Of a stretch of 64,000 nucleotides of DNA, positions 28,132 through 34,100 are shown piece by piece (position 1 is the first letter of the stretch; every line of letters starts with the position of its first letter). The DNA lies in the NCBI RefSeq assembly GCF_035594765.1, contig NW_026943818.1, positions 34,283,559 to 34,347,558 of the forward strand, written 5' to 3'. The stretch is from Anolis carolinensis (lineage: Eukaryota). Position numbers: made by a program.

Positions 28132-31100
28132 ATATTATTTATTATATATTATTTTCTACTTTTTATTATTTAATATTATTTTTCTATATTATTATTTATT
28201 TGATATTATTTATTGAATATTATTTTCCTATATTATTAATAATTTAATATTATTTTTCTATATTATTAAATATTTATTATATATTATTTTCTACTTTTAT
28301 TATTTATTTAATTCTTTTTCTATATTATTATTTATTTTCTATATTATTATTTATTTGATATTATTTGTTGAACATTACTTTCCCATATTACTGTTATTAT
28401 ATATGTGTGTGTGTGTGTATATATATACACACAATATAATTTACAATAATACATAATAATTATAACATATTGTATATACATATAATATTCATAATTTTAT
28501 ATTGTAATACGATATAATACTAATATAATAATATTAATTATATATTATATTTTACATGTAATATTACTAATAATATTACAATATATTGATACAGTACAAT
28601 ATAGTAATTAATTACCAGTATTGTACTATGGTAATCATATAATATTGTATGTAAATTTAATTTGTAAGCCGCTCTGAGTCCCCTTCGGGGTGAGAAGGGC
28701 GGGATATAAATGTAGCAAATAAATAAATAAATAAATAATCATTATTAATTTAATATTATTTTTCTATATTATTGTTTAATATTATTTATTACATATTATT
28801 TTCTACTTTTTATTATTTAATACGTATTCTTTTCTATATTATTATTATAAATTTATTTAATATTATCTTTCTATATTATTATTTAATATTATTTATTACA
28901 TATTATTTTCTACTTTTTTATTATTACAGTAGAGTCTCACTTATCCAACACTCGCTTATCCAACGTTCTGGATTATCCAACGCATTTTTGTAGTCAATGT
29001 TTTCAATATAACGTGATATTTTGGTGCTAATTTTGTAAATAAAGTAATTACTACATAGCATTACTGCGTATTGAACTACTTTTTCTGTCAAATTTGTTGT
29101 ATAACATGATGTTTTGGTGCTTAATTTGTAAAATCATAACCTATTTTGATGTTTAATAGGCTTTTTCTTAATCTCTCCTTATTATCCAACATATTCGCTT
29201 ATCCAACGTTCTGCCGGCCCGTTTATGTTGGATAAGTGAGACTCTACTGTACATATTATTTTCTATATTATTATTAATTTATTTAATATTATATTTCTAT
29301 ATTATTAAATATTATTTATTATATATATATTTCTAATTTTTATTATTTATTTAATATTATTTTCTTTATTATTATTATTATTAGATTTGATATTATCTTT
29401 CTATATTATGACAGGACTGGGCCCCAAAGTGCCTTCCATGGTGCTCTGCTCTCCTCTCCCCTCCTGTTTAAGACTACAACTCCCAGAATCCTCCTCTCTG
29501 CATGGACAGCTTCCTGTTTCAAAAACTACGACTCCCAGCATTCCCTACTTGGCAGGGCGGAAGTTCTTTTCTGAGGCGAGAGACTAACCACTCTCTTCAT
29601 GGCTGGCAACGAGGATTCTGAGAAGCGCAGTCACCCCAAATGTATCCCCCCAATACAAGGGTAATTAGTAGTGGGAGGAGCCAACTCCAAGCCACGCCCC
29701 CTACTCACCAATTACGTAAGAGCTGGCCGTAGCGCGGACCGAGGTATTTCGTGAGCATCCTGTCAGCCTCCGCTCTGAAAGTCACCTTCCTTCTGCGCAT
29801 GCGCTGGGATCCTCCCGCTACTTCGTTCCCCGCCCAGTGCAGTACGCATGCGCGAGGCCTTAGCGTCTCATAGGCTTGTTCTCTAGAGCGCATGCGCATA
29901 GACTAGCCTTCAACGTTTCCTCAAGCCCTGCCTAAAGAGCGCATGCGCACAGACTAGCGCATTCCGTATGTTCTATCTCCCTGGGTTTCCTCGCTCTCTG
30001 CCTTCAGAGCGCATGCGCATAGTCTAGCGCATTCATTATGGCCTTTCTGAGTTTACTCGCTCCCTGCCTGAAGGGCGCATGCGCACAGACTAGCACATTC
30101 AGTACATCCCATCTCCCTGGGTTTAGTACGCATGCGCATAGGCTAGTACATTCATTATGGCTTGAGTTTACTCGCTCTCTGCCTAAAGAGCGCATGCGCA
30201 CAGACTAGCACATTCTGTACGGCTCATCTCCCTGGGTTTACTACGCATGCGCATAGACTAGTACATTCATTATGGCTTGAGTTTACTCGCTCCCTGTCTA
30301 AAGAGCGCATGCGCACAGACTAGCACATTCTGTACGGCTCATCTCCCTGGGTTTACTACGCATGCGCACAGACTAGTACGTCCATTATGGCTTGAATTTA
30401 CTCGCTCCCTGCCCAAACAGCGCATGCGCACAGACTAGCACATTCTGTACGGCTCATCTCCCTGGGTTTACTACGCATGCGCATAGACTAGTACATTCAT
30501 TATGGCTTGAGTTTACTCGCTCCCTGTCTAAAGAGCGCATGCGCACAGACTAGCACATTCTGTACGGCTCATCTCCCTGGGTTTACTACGCATGCGCACA
30601 GACTAGTACGTCCATTATGGCTTGAATTTACTCGCTCCCTGCCCAAACAGCGCATGCGCACAGACTAGCACATTCTGTACGGCTCATCTCCCTGGGTTTA
30701 CTACGCATGCGCATAGACTAGTACATTCATTATGGCTTGAGTTTACTCGCTCCATGCCTAAAGAGCGCATGCGCACAGACTAGCACATTCAGTATTATTA
30801 TTATTATTATTAACTACATTTCTATACCGCTTTTCTCAAAGCGTTTTTCAATGTAATAAATGGCAAAATTGAATGCCTTATAAATATATAAATATATATA
30901 TATCTAAATAAAATACATACAACTGTAAACATGTTATTACAGCAGTATGGGCCCATCGCTGTTTATGGCGCATGCGCATAGACTAGCACATTCAGTATCG
31001 CTCATCTTCCTGTGTTTGGAGCGCATGCGCACAGACTAACATTCAGTAGGGCTCATCGCCCTGTGTTTAGAGCGCATGCGCACAAACTAGCACATTCAGT

Positions 31101-34100
31101 ATCCCTCATCTGCCTGTGTTTGGAGCGCATGCGCACAGACTAACATTCAGTAGGGCTCATCGCCCTGGGTTTGGAGCACATGCGCACAAACTAGCACATT
31201 CAGTATCCCTCATCTGCCTGTGTTTGGAGCGCATGCGCACAGACTGACATTCAGTACGGCTCATCGCCCTGTGTTTGGAGCGCATGCGCACAGACTAACA
31301 TTCAGTAGGGCTCATCGCCCTGTGTTTAGAGCGCATGCGCACAAACTAGCACATTCAGTATCCCTCATCTGCCTGTGTTTGGAGCGCATGCGCACAGACT
31401 GACATTCAGTACGGCTCATCGCCGCGTGTTTGGAGCGCATGCGCACAGACTAGCACATTCTGTATGGTTCGTTTCCATGGGTTTAGCGCGCATGCGCAAT
31501 TCTTATGGTTCCTCTCCCTGGGTTTCCTCGCTCCCTGCTTTCAGAGCGCATGCGCCAGAAGCGAGCCGCGTCAAGTCTAAAAGCAGAAGCGGTGGGCGTG
31601 GCCCAAGTCGGTGGGCGTGGCCAAGAGCAGGCTGCCAGGAGGAGGAGGAGGAGGAGGAAGAGAAGGTGAGGGGCAAATAAAGCCCATTGAATTGAATCCT
31701 CCCCTTTAAGAGGGAGCCCTAGGGAACAAGGCATTGTATTCAATGGGGAGGGAGAGAGGCCTGCTTTTAAAGGGAAGGCCCATTGAATTCAATGTATTTT
31801 GAGGGGAACCTCATAGAAGAGAGGCCTGGTTTTAAAGGAGAGGCCCATTGAATTGAATCCTCCCCTTTAAGAGAGAAAGCCAGGGAAGAAGTCATTGCAT
31901 TTGATGAGGAGGAAGATTAATAGTATTTATTATTATTTTCCTGTATTATTATTTATTTATTTAGTATTTATTTATTTCTTCCTTTGATATGATTATTTCA
32001 ACCTATTATTATATTTAATATTATTTATATAATTTTTTGATCATATTTTGGCATTGCATTATATTTTGTCACATTACTCATGTATTTAATAACATTTTTT
32101 TCCATATTATTATTATTTTATTTAACATTATTTATTTGATATTATTTTCCTGTATTATTATTTCAGTTTGTATGACCTATTATACTTTCATATTATTATT
32201 ATTATTAATATTATTATATTTAACATTATTTATTTGATGTCATTTTCCTGTATTATTATTTCAGTTTGTATGACCTATTATACTTTCATGTTATTATTAT
32301 TATTTATTTGATATTATTTTTCAATATGATTATTTCAGCATAGTATTATATTTATTCTTTGATATGGCTATTTTAGCATAGTATATTTTTCATATTATTA
32401 TTATTTTTATTTAACATTATTTATTTGATATTATTTTCCTTTATTATTATTTTAGCTTGTATGACCTTTTATACTTTCATATTATTATTATTTTATTTAA
32501 CATTATTTATTTGATATTATTTTCCTGTATTATTATTTCAGTTTGTTTGACCTATTATACTTTCATATTATTATTATTTTATTTAATATTATTTATTTGA
32601 TATTATTTTCCTGTATTATTATTTCAGTTTGTTTGACCTATTATACTTTCATATTATTATTATTTTATTTAACATTATTTATTTGATATATTTTCCTGTA
32701 TTATTATTTTAGTTTGTATGACCTATTATACTTTAATATTAATTTATTTATTTGATATTATTCTTTGATACGACTATTTCAGCAAAGTATATTTTTCATA
32801 TTATTATTATTTTATTTAACATTAACATTCCTATATAATTATTATTTTATCTCATACTTACTATTGTATTTTCATATTATTATGATTTACTTGATATTAT
32901 TTTTCAAAACGATTTTTTCAGCATAGTATATATTTCATATTATTATTATTTTATTTAACATTAATTTGATATTATTTTCCTGTATTATCATTTTAGCTTG
33001 TATTTACAATTATATTTTCATATTATTATTTATTTGATATTGTTCTTTGATACGATTATTTCACCATAGCATTATATTTATTCTTTGGTGCGATTATTTC
33101 ACCATAGTATTATATTTTTTCATATTATTACTATTATTTTATTTAACATTATTTATTTGATATTATTTCCTATATTATTATTTTAGTTTGTATTTACTAT
33201 TATAGTTTCATATTATTATTATTTTATTTAATATTGTTTATTTGATATTAAGGCTGACTCCTGCCTGGGGGAAATCCTTTGTTTGGAGGTGTTAGCTGGC
33301 CCTGATTGTTTCCTGCCTTGTAGCTTTGGGAGCCTGGCTGACTCCTGCCTGGGAGGAATCCTTGGTTTGGAGGTGCTAGCTGGCCCTGATTGTTTCCTTC
33401 CATGTAACTTCGGAGCCTGGCTGACTCCTGCCTGGGGGAAATCCTTTTGTTTGGAGGTGTTAGCTGGCCCTGATTGTTTCCTTCCATGTAGCTTCGGAGC
33501 CTGGCTGACTCCTGCCTGGGGAAATCCTTTGTTTGGAGGTGTTAGCTGGCCCTGATTGTTTCCTGCCTTGTAGCTTCAGAGCCTGGCTGACGCCTGCCTG
33601 GGGGGAATCCTTTATCGGGAGGTGTTAGCTGGCCCTGATTTATTTATTTATTATTTATTTATTTACAACATTTATACCCCACCCTTCTCACCCGAGGGGA
33701 CTCAGGGCAGCTTACAAAAATTGGCAAAATCGAATGCCCAAAATGCAATCATAAAAACAAAACAATATAAACAGATCCATTAAAAACATTGTTAAAACAT
33801 ATTATGAAAACCTTAAAATGTATATATAATTACGATTGATTGTTTGGTGCCTTGTAGCTTCGGAGCCTGGCTGACTCCTGCCTGGGGAAATCCTTTGTCG
33901 GGAGGTGTTAGCTAGCCCTGGTTGTTTCCTGCCTTGTCGCTTCGGAGCCTGGCTGACTCCCGCCTGGGGGGAATCCTTTGTCGGGATGTGTCAGCTGGCC
34001 CTGGTTGTTTCCTGCCTTGTAGCTTCGGAGCCTGGCTGAATCCTGCCTGGGGGTAATCCTTGGTTGGGAGCTGTTAGCTGGCCCTGATTGTTCCCTGTCG

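What the first reader, a model, noticed from the sequence alone, without database searches (positions are those of the whole stretch)
29790..31560. About 30 NRF1 palindromes amplified as a minisatellite in the UQCR11/C19orf25 divergent promoter
Seen: (G/A)CGCATGCGC recurs every ~52-60 bp for 1.8 kb directly upstream of the UQCR11 ATG. The motif and its CpGs stay intact while the spacers diverge. Known: YGCGCAYGCGCR is the methylation-sensitive NRF1 site, and NRF1 controls nuclear respiratory-chain genes; ordinary promoters have a few sites. Inference: a VNTR-based homotypic cluster that may dose or scaffold bidirectional transcription.
Basis: partly seen in the sequence, partly recalled or inferred. 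Interest (0 to 1): 0.7.

Follow-up and report, generated by a model that had tools for sequence, protein, structure and literature searches.

The report
NRF1-site minisatellite in anole UQCR11 promoter
A short piece of a lizard respiratory-chain gene promoter that carries one binding site for the regulator NRF1 has been copied head-to-tail about 27 times, giving a striking but not unprecedented example of how promoters can accumulate many copies of the same binding site.

Summary
Thirty GCGCATGCGC-type palindromes (22 exact, 7 ACGCATGCGC, 1 GCACATGCGC) lie at 29795-31555, 44-70 bp apart. The nearest is 37 bp from the UQCR11 ATG on the minus strand. Chance predicts about 0.4 such sites in the whole window. 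The window is green anole (Anolis carolinensis or a close relative), not human.

Twenty-seven sites form a true minisatellite (29888-31545) with 2- and 4-unit higher-order blocks, some 100 % identical, split by a 153-bp insertion. Three sites are stand-alone. The unit occurs nowhere else in the window.

The motif is conserved above its spacers, mainly at its CpGs: 59 of 60 motif CpGs are intact, against a spacer CpG o/e of 0.52. Evidence from non-CpG positions is weak.

49 % of the window is minisatellite. A neighbouring 25-copy array descends from a motif-bearing unit but has lost the motif and every CpG.

My reading is mutational amplification of an NRF1-type promoter segment whose sites are then kept by constraint or occupancy. 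Dosage tuning and the C19orf25 "divergent promoter" are unproven, because C19orf25 coding starts 11 kb away. The closest precedents are the NRF1-bearing tandem-repeat TERRA promoters and motif-duplicating insertions at germline NRF1 sites. I class it as a new member of a known kind, of moderate interest.

The parts
29888..30795 (.). Left half of the tandem array: 15 units. Alternating 53-bp and 62-bp units form a 115-bp, and then a 230-bp, higher-order period. Each unit starts with the NRF1 palindrome.
   Evidence: Unit list. TRF 115-bp period x 6.8 copies, 92 % matches. Blocks 30243-30472 and 30473-30702 are 100 % identical.
30796..30948 (-). AT-rich 153-bp insertion that splits one unit. It is flanked by the direct repeat CAGTAT (30790-30795 and 30943-30948) and has (ATT)6 at its left end. 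This is consistent with a retroposed fragment on the minus strand; the element is not identified.
   Evidence: Sequence and edges printed. GC 0.25. blastn finds only low-complexity matches elsewhere in the window. The retroposon reading is inference.
30949..31545 (.). Right half of the tandem array: the remainder of the split unit plus 12 units of 51, 53 or 58 bp (104-bp and longer higher-order periods). It includes the single degenerate copy, GCACATGCGC, at 31176.
   Evidence: Blocks 31021-31175 and 31280-31434 are 96.8 % identical.
29795..29853 (.). Two stand-alone NRF1 palindromes (29795-29804 and 29844-29853) nearest to the UQCR11 ATG. Their spacers are unrelated to the array unit. They probably belong to the original core promoter.
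   Evidence: Spacer-versus-unit local alignment is not above shuffles: 404 of 500 and 235 of 500 shuffles reach the score.
31546..31555 (.). Stand-alone palindrome at the right edge of the array.
   Evidence: The following 45 bp are unrelated to the unit (379 of 500 shuffles reach the score).
29709..29758 (-). UQCR11 coding exon 1 (ATG at 29758, GT donor at 29708-29707).
   Evidence: Reverse-strand sequence and ORF. At 17 aa it was too short for a Pfam scan. The assignment follows from continuity with exon 2.
27521..27641 (-). UQCR11 coding exon 2, including the stop codon.
   Evidence: Pfam UCR_6-4kD, E=1.6e-20, 73.2 bits against a cut-off of 24.5. Acceptor and stop read.
29691..29699 (-). 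GC/CACCC-type box (GCCACGCCC on the plus strand) just inside UQCR11 intron 1. It mirrors the two boxes at the other end of the array.
   Evidence: The Sp/KLF naming of the box is from recall.
31594..31621 (+). Two GC/CACCC-type boxes (31594-31602 and 31613-31621, reading GGGCGTGGC on the plus strand) directly after the array.
   Evidence: and sequence.
31556..31666 (+). Candidate non-coding first exon of a plus-strand transcript. It has no ATG, a (GGA)n run and a donor AAG|GTGAGG. It is hypothetical.
   Evidence: Sequence only. No transcript evidence is available. This is inference.
41018..41156 (+). C19orf25-homolog first coding exon. It is preceded by a polypyrimidine/AG acceptor, which implies an upstream non-coding exon somewhere.
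   Evidence: Pfam UPF0449, E=1.1e-14. Sequence. It matches the N-terminal 46 residues of the named anole protein P0001.
43074..43270 (+). C19orf25-homolog last coding exon.
   Evidence: Pfam UPF0449, E=1.6e-12. 100 % identity to 'UPF0449 protein C19orf25 homolog isoform X2 [Anolis carolinensis]'. Acceptor read.

Best explanation
This is a lineage-specific promoter minisatellite in a green-anole genome.

What it is. A 51-70-bp piece of the UQCR11 5' CpG-rich promoter, carrying one consensus NRF1 palindrome, was duplicated head-to-tail to 27 units. Three older stand-alone palindromes flank it, the nearest 37 bp from the UQCR11 ATG.

Shown:
- The array grew by duplication of 2- and 4-unit blocks, some very recently.
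- It lies in a region where half of the DNA is minisatellite.
- The unit is local, not a dispersed repeat.
- The palindrome, above all its two CpGs, has been kept while spacer CpGs decayed.

Inferred:
- Amplification was a mutational by-product of unequal exchange or slippage. It may have been favoured by the fragility of germline-occupied NRF1 sites described in human.
- The sites are kept because NRF1 occupies them. The array then acts as an extended, largely non-methylated, NRF1-loaded platform that is part of the UQCR11 promoter.
- Exact copy number is probably close to neutral, since the proximal sites would be enough for basal promoter function.
For: - Motif excess and regular spacing.
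- Tandem and higher-order structure. 230-bp blocks are 100 % identical.
- The unit spacer is absent elsewhere in the window. Outside 29700-31700, blastn with word size 7 found only 12-18-nt matches at E>=0.17, at other palindrome sites.
- Substitution events. On 25 core units (5 edge units dropped as unalignable), parsimony gives 1 event in motif columns 2-10 and 32 events in the next 24 columns (binomial P=3.7e-4). The tree was built from spacer columns, so the test is conservative.
- The motif window has the fewest events (1) of the 26 sliding 9-column windows.
- CpG columns: motif 1 event in 4 columns, spacer 21 events in 9 columns (P=0.0033).
- 59 of 60 motif CpG cells are intact. The spacer CpG at alignment columns 20-21 survives in 2 units, against 12 CA and 6 TA.
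- Array CpG o/e is 0.93 at GC 0.50, while the array's spacers alone give 0.52. Five of the seven other arrays measured have o/e 0-0.33; the CACGCCC arrays (0.78) and the array at the window start (1.07) are the exceptions.
- Internal control. The 72-bp x 25.7 array at 48254-50104 is homologous to a motif-bearing unit at 48143 (local score 36 against 13.2 +/- 2.2; 0 of 1000 shuffles reach it). Its palindrome is destroyed and it has 0 CpG.
- 48.7 % of the window lies in 27 strong tandem arrays.
- Gene context.
- Literature. Human germline NRF1 sites are hotspots for breakpoints and for 5-20-bp insertions that duplicate the motif and build homotypic clusters (PMC8559717; abstract and passages). 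NRF1 sites sit inside tandem-repeat CpG-island promoters and act in a methylation-sensitive way (PMC6600276; passages). Lizard non-methylated islands have mammal-like CpG o/e at lower GC (PMC3583005; passages).
Against: - No binding, methylation, accessibility or transcript data could be reached, so occupancy and function are inference.
- Non-CpG motif positions give only weak evidence of constraint. Columns 4-7 and 10 have 0 events in 5 columns against 11 in 15 spacer columns (P=0.042). With column 1 included it is 2 in 6 (P=0.24).
- The 20 bases after the motif are also well conserved, at about 0.9 events per column by my sum of the per-column counts.
- Many units are young copies (22 distinct sequences among 30), so independent evidence is thinner than '30 sites' suggests.
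- Spacer CpG depletion (o/e 0.52) means the array has not behaved as a uniformly protected island.
- The neighbouring 72-bp array shows that amplification here needs no intact motif.
- Units were anchored on the motif for alignment, which may sharpen columns near the anchor.
Confidence: 0.55

Rival explanations
1. Adaptive dosage or scaffold. Copy number of the NRF1 array is itself selected. It tunes UQCR11 output and drives a divergent C19orf25 transcript from a shared bidirectional promoter.
For: - Motif retention across 30 sites.
- The array is bracketed by outward-pointing GGGCGTGGC boxes, with a plausible GT-donor exon at its right edge.
- UQCR11 and C19orf25 are head-to-head.
- The main unit spacings of 53, 51 and 62 bp are near whole helical turns (5.05, 4.86 and 5.90). 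This was noticed post hoc.
Against: - The C19orf25 ATG is 11.3 kb away and its first exon is unknown.
- The array alone puts any plus-strand start at least 1.8 kb from the UQCR11 ATG, beyond the usual bidirectional-promoter distance (a definition I recall).
- Half of the window is tandem array, and a motif-less relative amplified equally well.
- Selection on each of about 30 redundant sites would be weak.
- Every palindrome contains ATG on both strands. Transcripts starting inside the array would therefore carry many upstream ATGs (sequence).
Confidence: 0.15
2. An inert, young repeat. The array is an unbound, possibly methylated, neutral minisatellite, and the motif looks conserved only because most copies are recent.
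For: - 100 % and 97 % identical higher-order blocks.
- Only 22 distinct units among 30.
- Weak non-CpG signal (P=0.042 to 0.24).
- The region is extremely prone to tandem repeats.
- Spacer CpG o/e is only 0.52.
Against: - The event-based tests count changes, not copies. They still show motif CpGs spared (1 event in 4 columns) where spacer CpGs were hit (21 events in 9 columns).
- Units with unalignable or only distantly related spacers still carry perfect palindromes.
- In the 357-bp intronic repeat, whose first two units are 98 % identical, 1 of 3 palindromes has already decayed (GTGCATGCGC at 42455). The 72-bp array has lost them all. By contrast only 1 of 30 has decayed here.
Confidence: 0.15
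3. Molecular drive. Germline NRF1 occupancy itself causes breakage and tandem duplication. Motif-bearing units then out-replicate motif-less ones, and the array keeps its motif without organism-level selection.
For: - Human data on NRF1-site instability and motif-duplicating insertions (PMC8559717).
- 36 of the 43 near-consensus sites in the window lie in four tandem arrays: the main locus, positions 1-214, and the 357-bp repeat.
- A second CpG-rich array family carries about 39 GCCACGCCC boxes. SP/KLF motif families are named beside NRF1 among the top insertion hotspots in that paper.
Against: - The published events are 5-20-bp insertions, not 50-230-bp block duplications.
- Arrays without any such motif are abundant in the window, and the motif-less 72-bp array reached about 25 copies.
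- The five palindromes of the second promoter (47645-48154) show no sign of tandem origin. Of the six spacer pairs tested among the first four of them, none is significant.
Confidence: 0.1
4. Assembly artefact. The array length or structure was produced by mis-assembly of repeats.
For: Perfectly identical 230-bp blocks. Three N runs elsewhere in the window, which I left untouched.
Against: The array has ordered, diverged subfamilies. A unique insertion with a target-site-like duplication sits inside it. Unique flanks on both sides join known exons.
Confidence: 0.03

Closest known systems
Human TERRA subtelomeric '61-29-37 repeat' CpG-island promoters (PMC6600276; passages read)
   Same: It is a promoter made of tandem repeats that form a CpG island. 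Every unit of one repeat class carries NRF1 sites. NRF1 is a positive regulator there, and binding is blocked by CpG methylation.
   Different: - TERRA units are 29 bp with two putative sites, each two bases off consensus.
- The loci are subtelomeric, and the product is a non-coding telomeric RNA.
- Here the units are 51-70 bp with one consensus palindrome each.
- The array sits at a protein-coding respiratory-chain gene, and the window has no telomeric repeat.
- The unit sequences are unrelated by description. I did not compare any human sequence.
Motif-duplicating insertions and homotypic clustering at germline-bound NRF1 sites (Kaiser et al. 2021, PMC8559717; abstract and passages)
   Same: It offers a mutational, non-adaptive route from one NRF1 site to a cluster of NRF1 sites in regulatory DNA. 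NRF1 and SP/KLF families are among the most affected, and both kinds of motif are arrayed in this window.
   Different: That work describes rare 5-20-bp insertions and structural-variant breakpoints in human. Here 50-230-bp blocks were duplicated many times in a lizard, ending in a 1.7-kb array.
Homotypic clusters of transcription-factor binding sites in vertebrate promoters (Gotea et al. 2010, seen only as cited in PMC8559717)
   Same: There are many sites for one factor within one regulatory region.
   Different: Typical clusters hold a few sites without tandem-repeat homology between them, like the five-site cluster at 47645-48154 in this window. Here 27 sites share a repeat unit.
SINE-derived satellites of squamates (PMC10702118; passages read)
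   Same: They are abundant lineage-specific tandem arrays in squamate genomes, including Anolis carolinensis. They have alternating subvariants and elongate by dimers or trimers.
   Different: The anole satellite described has a 145-nt unit derived from the Squam1 SINE body. The unit here is 51-70 bp, occurs only at this locus within the window, and shows no tRNA-like head. Homology to SINE consensus sequences could not be tested.

Membership tests
   22 exact 10-mers and 8 with one mismatch. Position 11 is A in 90 % of the 29 units that have a letter there. PMC3575792 lists this 10-mer as NRF1 (passage).
NRF1 binding site | Occupied by NRF1 in cells | not testable with these tools
   No ChIP, CUT&RUN or ATAC data for anole are within reach.
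NRF1 binding site | CpGs of the site unmethylated, since binding is methylation-sensitive | tested here: inconclusive
   Indirect evidence only. 59 of 60 motif CpG cells are intact and the array's CpG o/e is 0.93, but spacer o/e is 0.52.
Minisatellite / VNTR | Head-to-tail array of units of roughly 10-100 bp | tested here: met
   27 units of 51-70 bp. TRF periods are 115 and 104 bp, each a pair of units.
Minisatellite / VNTR | Copy number varies between individuals | not testable with these tools
   Only one haplotype is available. The 100 % identical 230-bp blocks show recent duplication, not polymorphism.
CpG island / non-methylated island | Sequence criteria (length over 200 bp, CpG o/e over 0.6, GC about 0.5; thresholds from recall) | tested here: met
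   1761 bp, GC 0.497, o/e 0.93. However, 60 of the 99 CpGs are motif CpGs.
CpG island / non-methylated island | Experimentally non-methylated | not testable with these tools
   Bio-CAP data for anole liver and testes exist according to PMC3583005 but cannot be read here.
Bidirectional (divergent) promoter | Two head-to-head genes whose transcription starts lie within about 1 kb (definition from recall) | tested here: inconclusive
   The head-to-head orientation is met. The coding starts are 11.3 kb apart. Both transcription starts are unknown. The array itself is 1.76 kb long.
TERRA-type 61-29-37 repeat promoter | 29-bp NRF1-bearing units beside 61- and 37-bp repeats, subtelomeric and transcribed toward the telomere | tested here: not met
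   The unit sizes and architecture differ. No TTAGGG repeat is present in the window (0 matches).
Squamate SINE-derived satellite (sSat1Aca) | 145-nt unit derived from the Squam1 body | tested here: not met
   The unit is 51-70 bp. No tRNA-like sequence was found.
Homotypic TFBS cluster | Several sites for the same factor within one regulatory region | tested here: met
   30 sites in 1.76 kb abutting the UQCR11 start.

The most novel reading that the evidence does not exclude
Anole promoters may host a genome-wide class of transcription-factor-seeded minisatellites. Under this reading, germline-occupied NRF1 and SP/KLF-type sites break and duplicate in tandem, so the motif-bearing units propagate themselves. 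Arrays that remain occupied keep their CpGs and act as oversized non-methylated islands, as at the UQCR11 locus and perhaps at the GCCACGCCC arrays at 23.2-25.7 kb. Arrays that lose occupancy are methylated and decay to CpG-free satellites, as in the 72-bp array at 48.3-50.1 kb. This window would then show several stages of that life cycle side by side.
Probability: 0.2. Interest if true: 0.65.

Novelty: new member of a known kind. Interest (0 to 1): 0.35.

Why it matters
If the array is bound and unmethylated, it is a natural and unusually clean test bed. It holds about 30 consensus sites for one methylation-sensitive factor in front of a gene of that factor's classical regulon.

Two open questions could be addressed with it:
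- Does site number matter for promoter output and for the extent of a CpG island?
- Do homotypic clusters arise by selection or by mutational bias at occupied sites?

The same window offers built-in comparators: a 5-site non-repeat NRF1 promoter, a 1-site promoter, a decaying intronic repeat, and a fully decayed sister array. If the array is unbound, it is simply one more lizard minisatellite.

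Tried and rejected
1. Dispersed repeat or transposon origin. blastn (word size 7) of left and right higher-order units and of the 70-bp unit against the window found nothing outside the locus except the 12-18-nt palindrome itself. Rejected within this window; the rest of the genome was not searchable.

2. RNA gene or SINE head. Rfam at E<=0.1 gave only a sub-threshold mir-1277 match at 28387 (29 bits against a gathering score of 81), which I take as noise. ARAGORN found no tRNA in 27000-33000.

3. Coding potential. ORFs through the array are stop-bounded repeats of up to about 58-116 aa with unit periodicity. 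It is not a gene.

4. Second promoter as a cryptic tandem duplication of the same kind. Six spacer pairs were tested among the first four of the five palindromes at 47645-48154. None stood out from shuffles; the best was reached by 44 of 500 shuffles. The four comparisons to the main unit also failed; the best was reached by 32 of 500. No support.

5. Array at 1-214 related to the main unit. Not above shuffles: 118 of 500 reach the score.

6. Direct precedent in print. Searches that found none were 'NRF1'+'minisatellite' (7 papers; none looked relevant from titles and abstract openings), 'GCGCATGCGC'+'tandem repeat' (2 papers; I opened only PMC3575792, which was not relevant, and judged the other from its title), 'NRF1 motif'+'VNTR' (0), 'NRF1'+'VNTR'+'promoter' (26 papers, 15 listed; two were checked, and they only cite the TERRA paper or Domcke 2015), and 'NRF-1 binding sites'+'tandem'+'repeat'+'promoter activity' (0). 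'UQCR11'+'NRF1'+'promoter' gave 12 papers. None was opened, and none looked like a promoter study from its title.

7. PRDM9 status of Anolis, as a possible reason for recombination at promoters. The one passage found does not settle it, so I dropped the idea.

8. Orthologous promoters in other species. Not possible. The only open contig collection holds bacteria and archaea, and the other two are closed. I ran no such scan.

9. The joined (spliced) UQCR11 and C19orf25 models were not built or searched. Exons were searched one by one.

10. The sigma-70 promoter/terminator scanner and the structure and complex tools were not used, as they do not apply to this feature.

Full report
**What is there.** Between 29795 and 31555 the window holds 30 copies of a GCGCATGCGC-type palindrome. 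Twenty-two are exact, seven are ACGCATGCGC and one is GCACATGCGC at 31176. RCGCATGCGC gives 72 strand-matches in the window against 0.04 expected (0 of 100 shuffles reach this). With up to one mismatch there are 43 sites against 0.37 expected, and 30 of them lie in this locus. Successive cores are 44-70 bp apart: 53 bp 11 times, 51 bp 6 times, 62 bp 6 times. The two longer gaps are 104 bp, which holds the degenerate copy, and 203 bp, which holds an insertion. No motif-less unit is therefore hidden.

**Whose DNA and which genes.** Exons were tested one at a time. I built and searched no joined, spliced model.
- The ORF at 27524-27673 (minus strand) is Pfam UCR_6-4kD, E=1.6e-20.
- With the reverse-strand sequence, UQCR11 has exon 1 at 29758-29709 and exon 2 at 27641-27521. 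Its ATG is 37 bp from the first palindrome.
- MBD-domain exons lie at 18846-19085 and 11608-12180 on the minus strand.
- On the plus strand, 40895-41290 and 43049-43267 are both Pfam UPF0449, the C19orf25 family.
- The latter exon is 100 % identical to the NCBI protein 'UPF0449 protein C19orf25 homolog isoform X2 [Anolis carolinensis]'. That protein's 111 residues correspond to those two exons taken separately.

The window is therefore green anole or a very close relative, not human. I handled no human sequence. The three N runs were left alone.

**Anatomy of the array.**
- Cutting at each palindrome gives 30 units, of which 22 are distinct sequences.
- The left half alternates a 53-bp and a 62-bp unit. 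TRF reports a 115-bp period x 6.8 copies at 92 %.
- Blocks 30243-30472 and 30473-30702 are 100 % identical.
- The right half alternates 51- and 53-bp units (104-bp period x 5.2 copies, 88 %).
- A 70-bp unit at 29939 contains both tail types and looks like the older form.
- One unit is split by a 153-bp AT-rich insertion (30796-30948). It is flanked by CAGTAT on both sides and carries (ATT)6 at one end. I read it as a retroposed fragment; this is inference.
- The spacers after 29795, 29844 and 31546 are unrelated to the array unit: 404, 235 and 379 of 500 shuffles reach the observed score. The spacer after 31488 is clearly related (0 of 500) and the one after 29888 is marginal (14 of 500).
- So there is a 27-unit minisatellite (29888-31545) plus three stand-alone sites, two of which form the UQCR11-proximal promoter.
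- blastn of the units against the window finds nothing outside the locus except the palindrome itself. Rfam and ARAGORN find nothing relevant. ORFs across the array are stop-bounded and periodic.

**Is the motif really better kept than the spacers?** I dropped the five edge units, whose spacers do not align, and placed the other 25 on a tree built from spacer columns only. This biases against the claim.
- Parsimony gives 1 change in motif columns 2-10 and 32 changes in the next 24 columns (P=3.7e-4).
- The motif window has the fewest changes of all 26 sliding 9-column windows.
- The contrast is mostly a CpG effect. Motif CpG columns have 1 change in 4 columns, and spacer CpG columns have 21 changes in 9 (P=0.0033).
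- Non-CpG motif columns 4-7 and 10 have 0 changes in 5 columns against 11 in 15 spacer columns (P=0.042). With column 1, the G/A position, it is 2 in 6 (P=0.24).
- In cells, 59 of 60 motif CpGs are intact. The spacer CpG in CTAG-CG-CATTC survives in 2 units, against 12 CA and 6 TA.
- The array as a whole has GC 0.497 and CpG o/e 0.93. But 60 of its 99 CpGs are motif CpGs, and the spacers alone have o/e 0.52 with a CpA excess of 1.24.
- The 20 bases after the motif are also fairly well conserved, at about 0.9 changes per column by my sum of the per-column counts.

It cannot by itself separate selection for binding from site-level protection against methylation-driven decay.

**Context that changes the interpretation.**
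- Twenty-seven strong tandem arrays (TRF score >=300) cover 31,159 of 64,000 bases, or 48.7 %. Tandem amplification is the rule in this region.
- Palindromes elsewhere: one at the MBD-gene 5' end (19198), one intronic (11782), and five at a second CpG-rich 5' region (47645-48154). The spacers tested there (those after the first four of the five) are not related to each other.
- Palindromes in other repeats: three in an 85-bp repeat at the window start, and three in a 357-bp intronic repeat. In the latter, one has already decayed to GTGCATGCGC although the first two units are 98 % identical.
- Most telling is the 72-bp x 25.7 array at 48254-50104. It is homologous to a palindrome-bearing unit at 48143 (score 36 against 13.2 +/- 2.2; 0 of 1000 shuffles reach it). 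It carries a destroyed motif and not a single CpG.
- Amplification here therefore needs no intact motif, and array dynamics do not preserve the motif automatically. This makes its retention at the UQCR11 locus meaningful.
- A second CpG-rich array family (23234-25691; o/e 0.78 measured over 23425-25692) carries 39 of the window's 43 GCCACGCCC boxes. The same box brackets the NRF1 array on both sides, pointing outward (29691; 31594 and 31613).

**The divergent-promoter claim.** UQCR11 and C19orf25 are head-to-head, but the C19orf25 ATG is at 41018, which is 11.3 kb from the UQCR11 ATG. The exon carrying it is preceded by a pyrimidine-rich AG acceptor, so a non-coding first exon must exist upstream. 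There are two candidates:
- 31556-31666 at the array's right edge, which has two GC boxes, no ATG and an AAG|GTGAGG donor;
- a CpG-rich patch at 37.8-38.0 kb.

Sequence alone cannot decide between them.

**Mechanism.** My best reading (confidence 0.55) has three parts.
- The original UQCR11 promoter had a few NRF1 sites, like the five-site promoter in the same window.
- One site with its flank was amplified by unequal exchange or slippage in a region that does this constantly.
- The palindromes are retained because they are occupied, so the array forms an extended NRF1-loaded, largely non-methylated platform at the UQCR11 start. Exact copy number is nearly neutral.

The amplification step is supported by structure. 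The occupancy step is inference. The published framework is as follows.
- In human spermatogonia, NRF1 sites are among the strongest hotspots for breakpoints and for 5-20-bp insertions that duplicate the motif and build homotypic clusters. The authors present this as a mutational rather than adaptive origin (PMC8559717; abstract and passages; its supplementary tables were not seen).
- Human TERRA promoters are tandem-repeat CpG islands in which each 29-bp unit has putative NRF1 sites. NRF1 acts there in a methylation-sensitive way (PMC6600276; passages).
- Lizard non-methylated islands have mammal-like CpG o/e at lower GC, which fits this array (PMC3583005; passages).

The rivals are adaptive dosage or a bidirectional scaffold (0.15), an inert young repeat (0.15), self-propagating 'molecular drive' at occupied sites (0.10), and an assembly artefact (0.03).

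**Novelty.** Ten full-text searches found no description of a consensus NRF1-site minisatellite at a respiratory-chain gene promoter. The kind of thing is known: tandem-repeat promoters bearing NRF1 sites, and homotypic clusters born of duplication. I file it as a new member of a known kind, of moderate interest (0.35). Interest would rise if a genome-wide class of factor-seeded promoter minisatellites with a visible life cycle were shown in anole.

**What stayed unchecked.**
- Orthologous promoters, population variation, methylation, NRF1 binding and transcription starts.
- The rest of the anole genome.
- SINE consensus homology.
- The name of the gene at 47.9-56.3 kb. It looked REXO1-like to me from recall only; Pfam found nothing in the two exons tested.

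Noticed in passing
window 48254-50104 (also 50753-51028): A 72-bp x 25.7 array with zero CpG. Its unit is homologous to a palindrome-bearing sequence at 48143-48176 but reads TGCACATGCTCAG in place of the NRF1 site. It looks like a decayed sister of a motif-bearing unit, amplified after or despite motif loss.
   Followed up: partly
window 23234-25691: 112-bp and 57-bp arrays carry 39 of the window's 43 GCCACGCCC boxes (0.16 expected by chance). CpG o/e is 0.78 over 23425-25692. They lie between the MBD-gene 5' end and the UQCR11 3' end. This is a second CpG-rich, factor-motif-bearing minisatellite.
   Followed up: partly
window 47645-48154: Five exact GCGCATGCGC palindromes lie in a GC-rich (0.63), CpG-rich (o/e 0.94) 5' region. 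They sit in front of an ORF that begins at about 47976 and has a Cys/His-rich start. Spacers are not tandem-related. The gene name (REXO1-like) is from recall only; Pfam found nothing in the two exons tested.
   Followed up: partly
window 1-260: An 85-bp x 2.5 repeat with ACGCATGCGC in each unit, followed by GC boxes. CpG o/e is 1.07. It is cut by the window edge and may be another promoter array.
   Followed up: no
window 41928-42847: A 357-bp x 2.6 repeat inside the C19orf25 intron, with one NRF1 palindrome per unit. The middle copy has decayed to GTGCATGCGC although the first two units are 98 % identical.
   Followed up: partly
window 2623-3299 and 44978-45910: Two 94-bp GC-box-rich arrays belong to the same family but are in inverted orientation, 42 kb apart. 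They bracket the MBD / UQCR11 / C19orf25 / TIR gene group. Aligned units have 81 % mean column identity.
   Followed up: partly
window 44411-44854 (+): A 148-aa ORF with a TIR domain (Pfam TIR_2, E=2.8e-15) directly after C19orf25. It is preceded by 170-191-bp repeats at 43673-44428 whose units contain parts of the same reading frame. The gene is not identified.
   Followed up: no
window 29473-29486 and 29525-29538: Two ACTACAACTCCCAG-type boxes (0 and 1 mismatch) lie in UQCR11 intron 1. The window has 6 matches with up to 2 mismatches against 0.43 expected. The ZNF143/THAP11-type naming is from recall. Some of the other matches may belong to a common anole repeat.
   Followed up: partly
window 29756-29802 (minus strand): The ATG inside the first palindrome is in frame with the UQCR11 ATG, with no stop between them. 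It would add 14 residues if transcription started upstream of it. Its context looks weaker than that of the main ATG.
   Followed up: no
window, whole: 27 strong tandem arrays cover 48.7 % of the 64 kb, with GC swinging from 0.14 to 0.61 per kb. The region is exceptionally rich in minisatellites.
   Followed up: partly
window 29888-31545: The main unit lengths of 53, 51 and 62 bp equal 5.05, 4.86 and 5.90 helical turns of 10.5 bp. Most palindromes would therefore face the same side of the helix. This was noticed post hoc and rests on only about four independent unit types.
   Followed up: no
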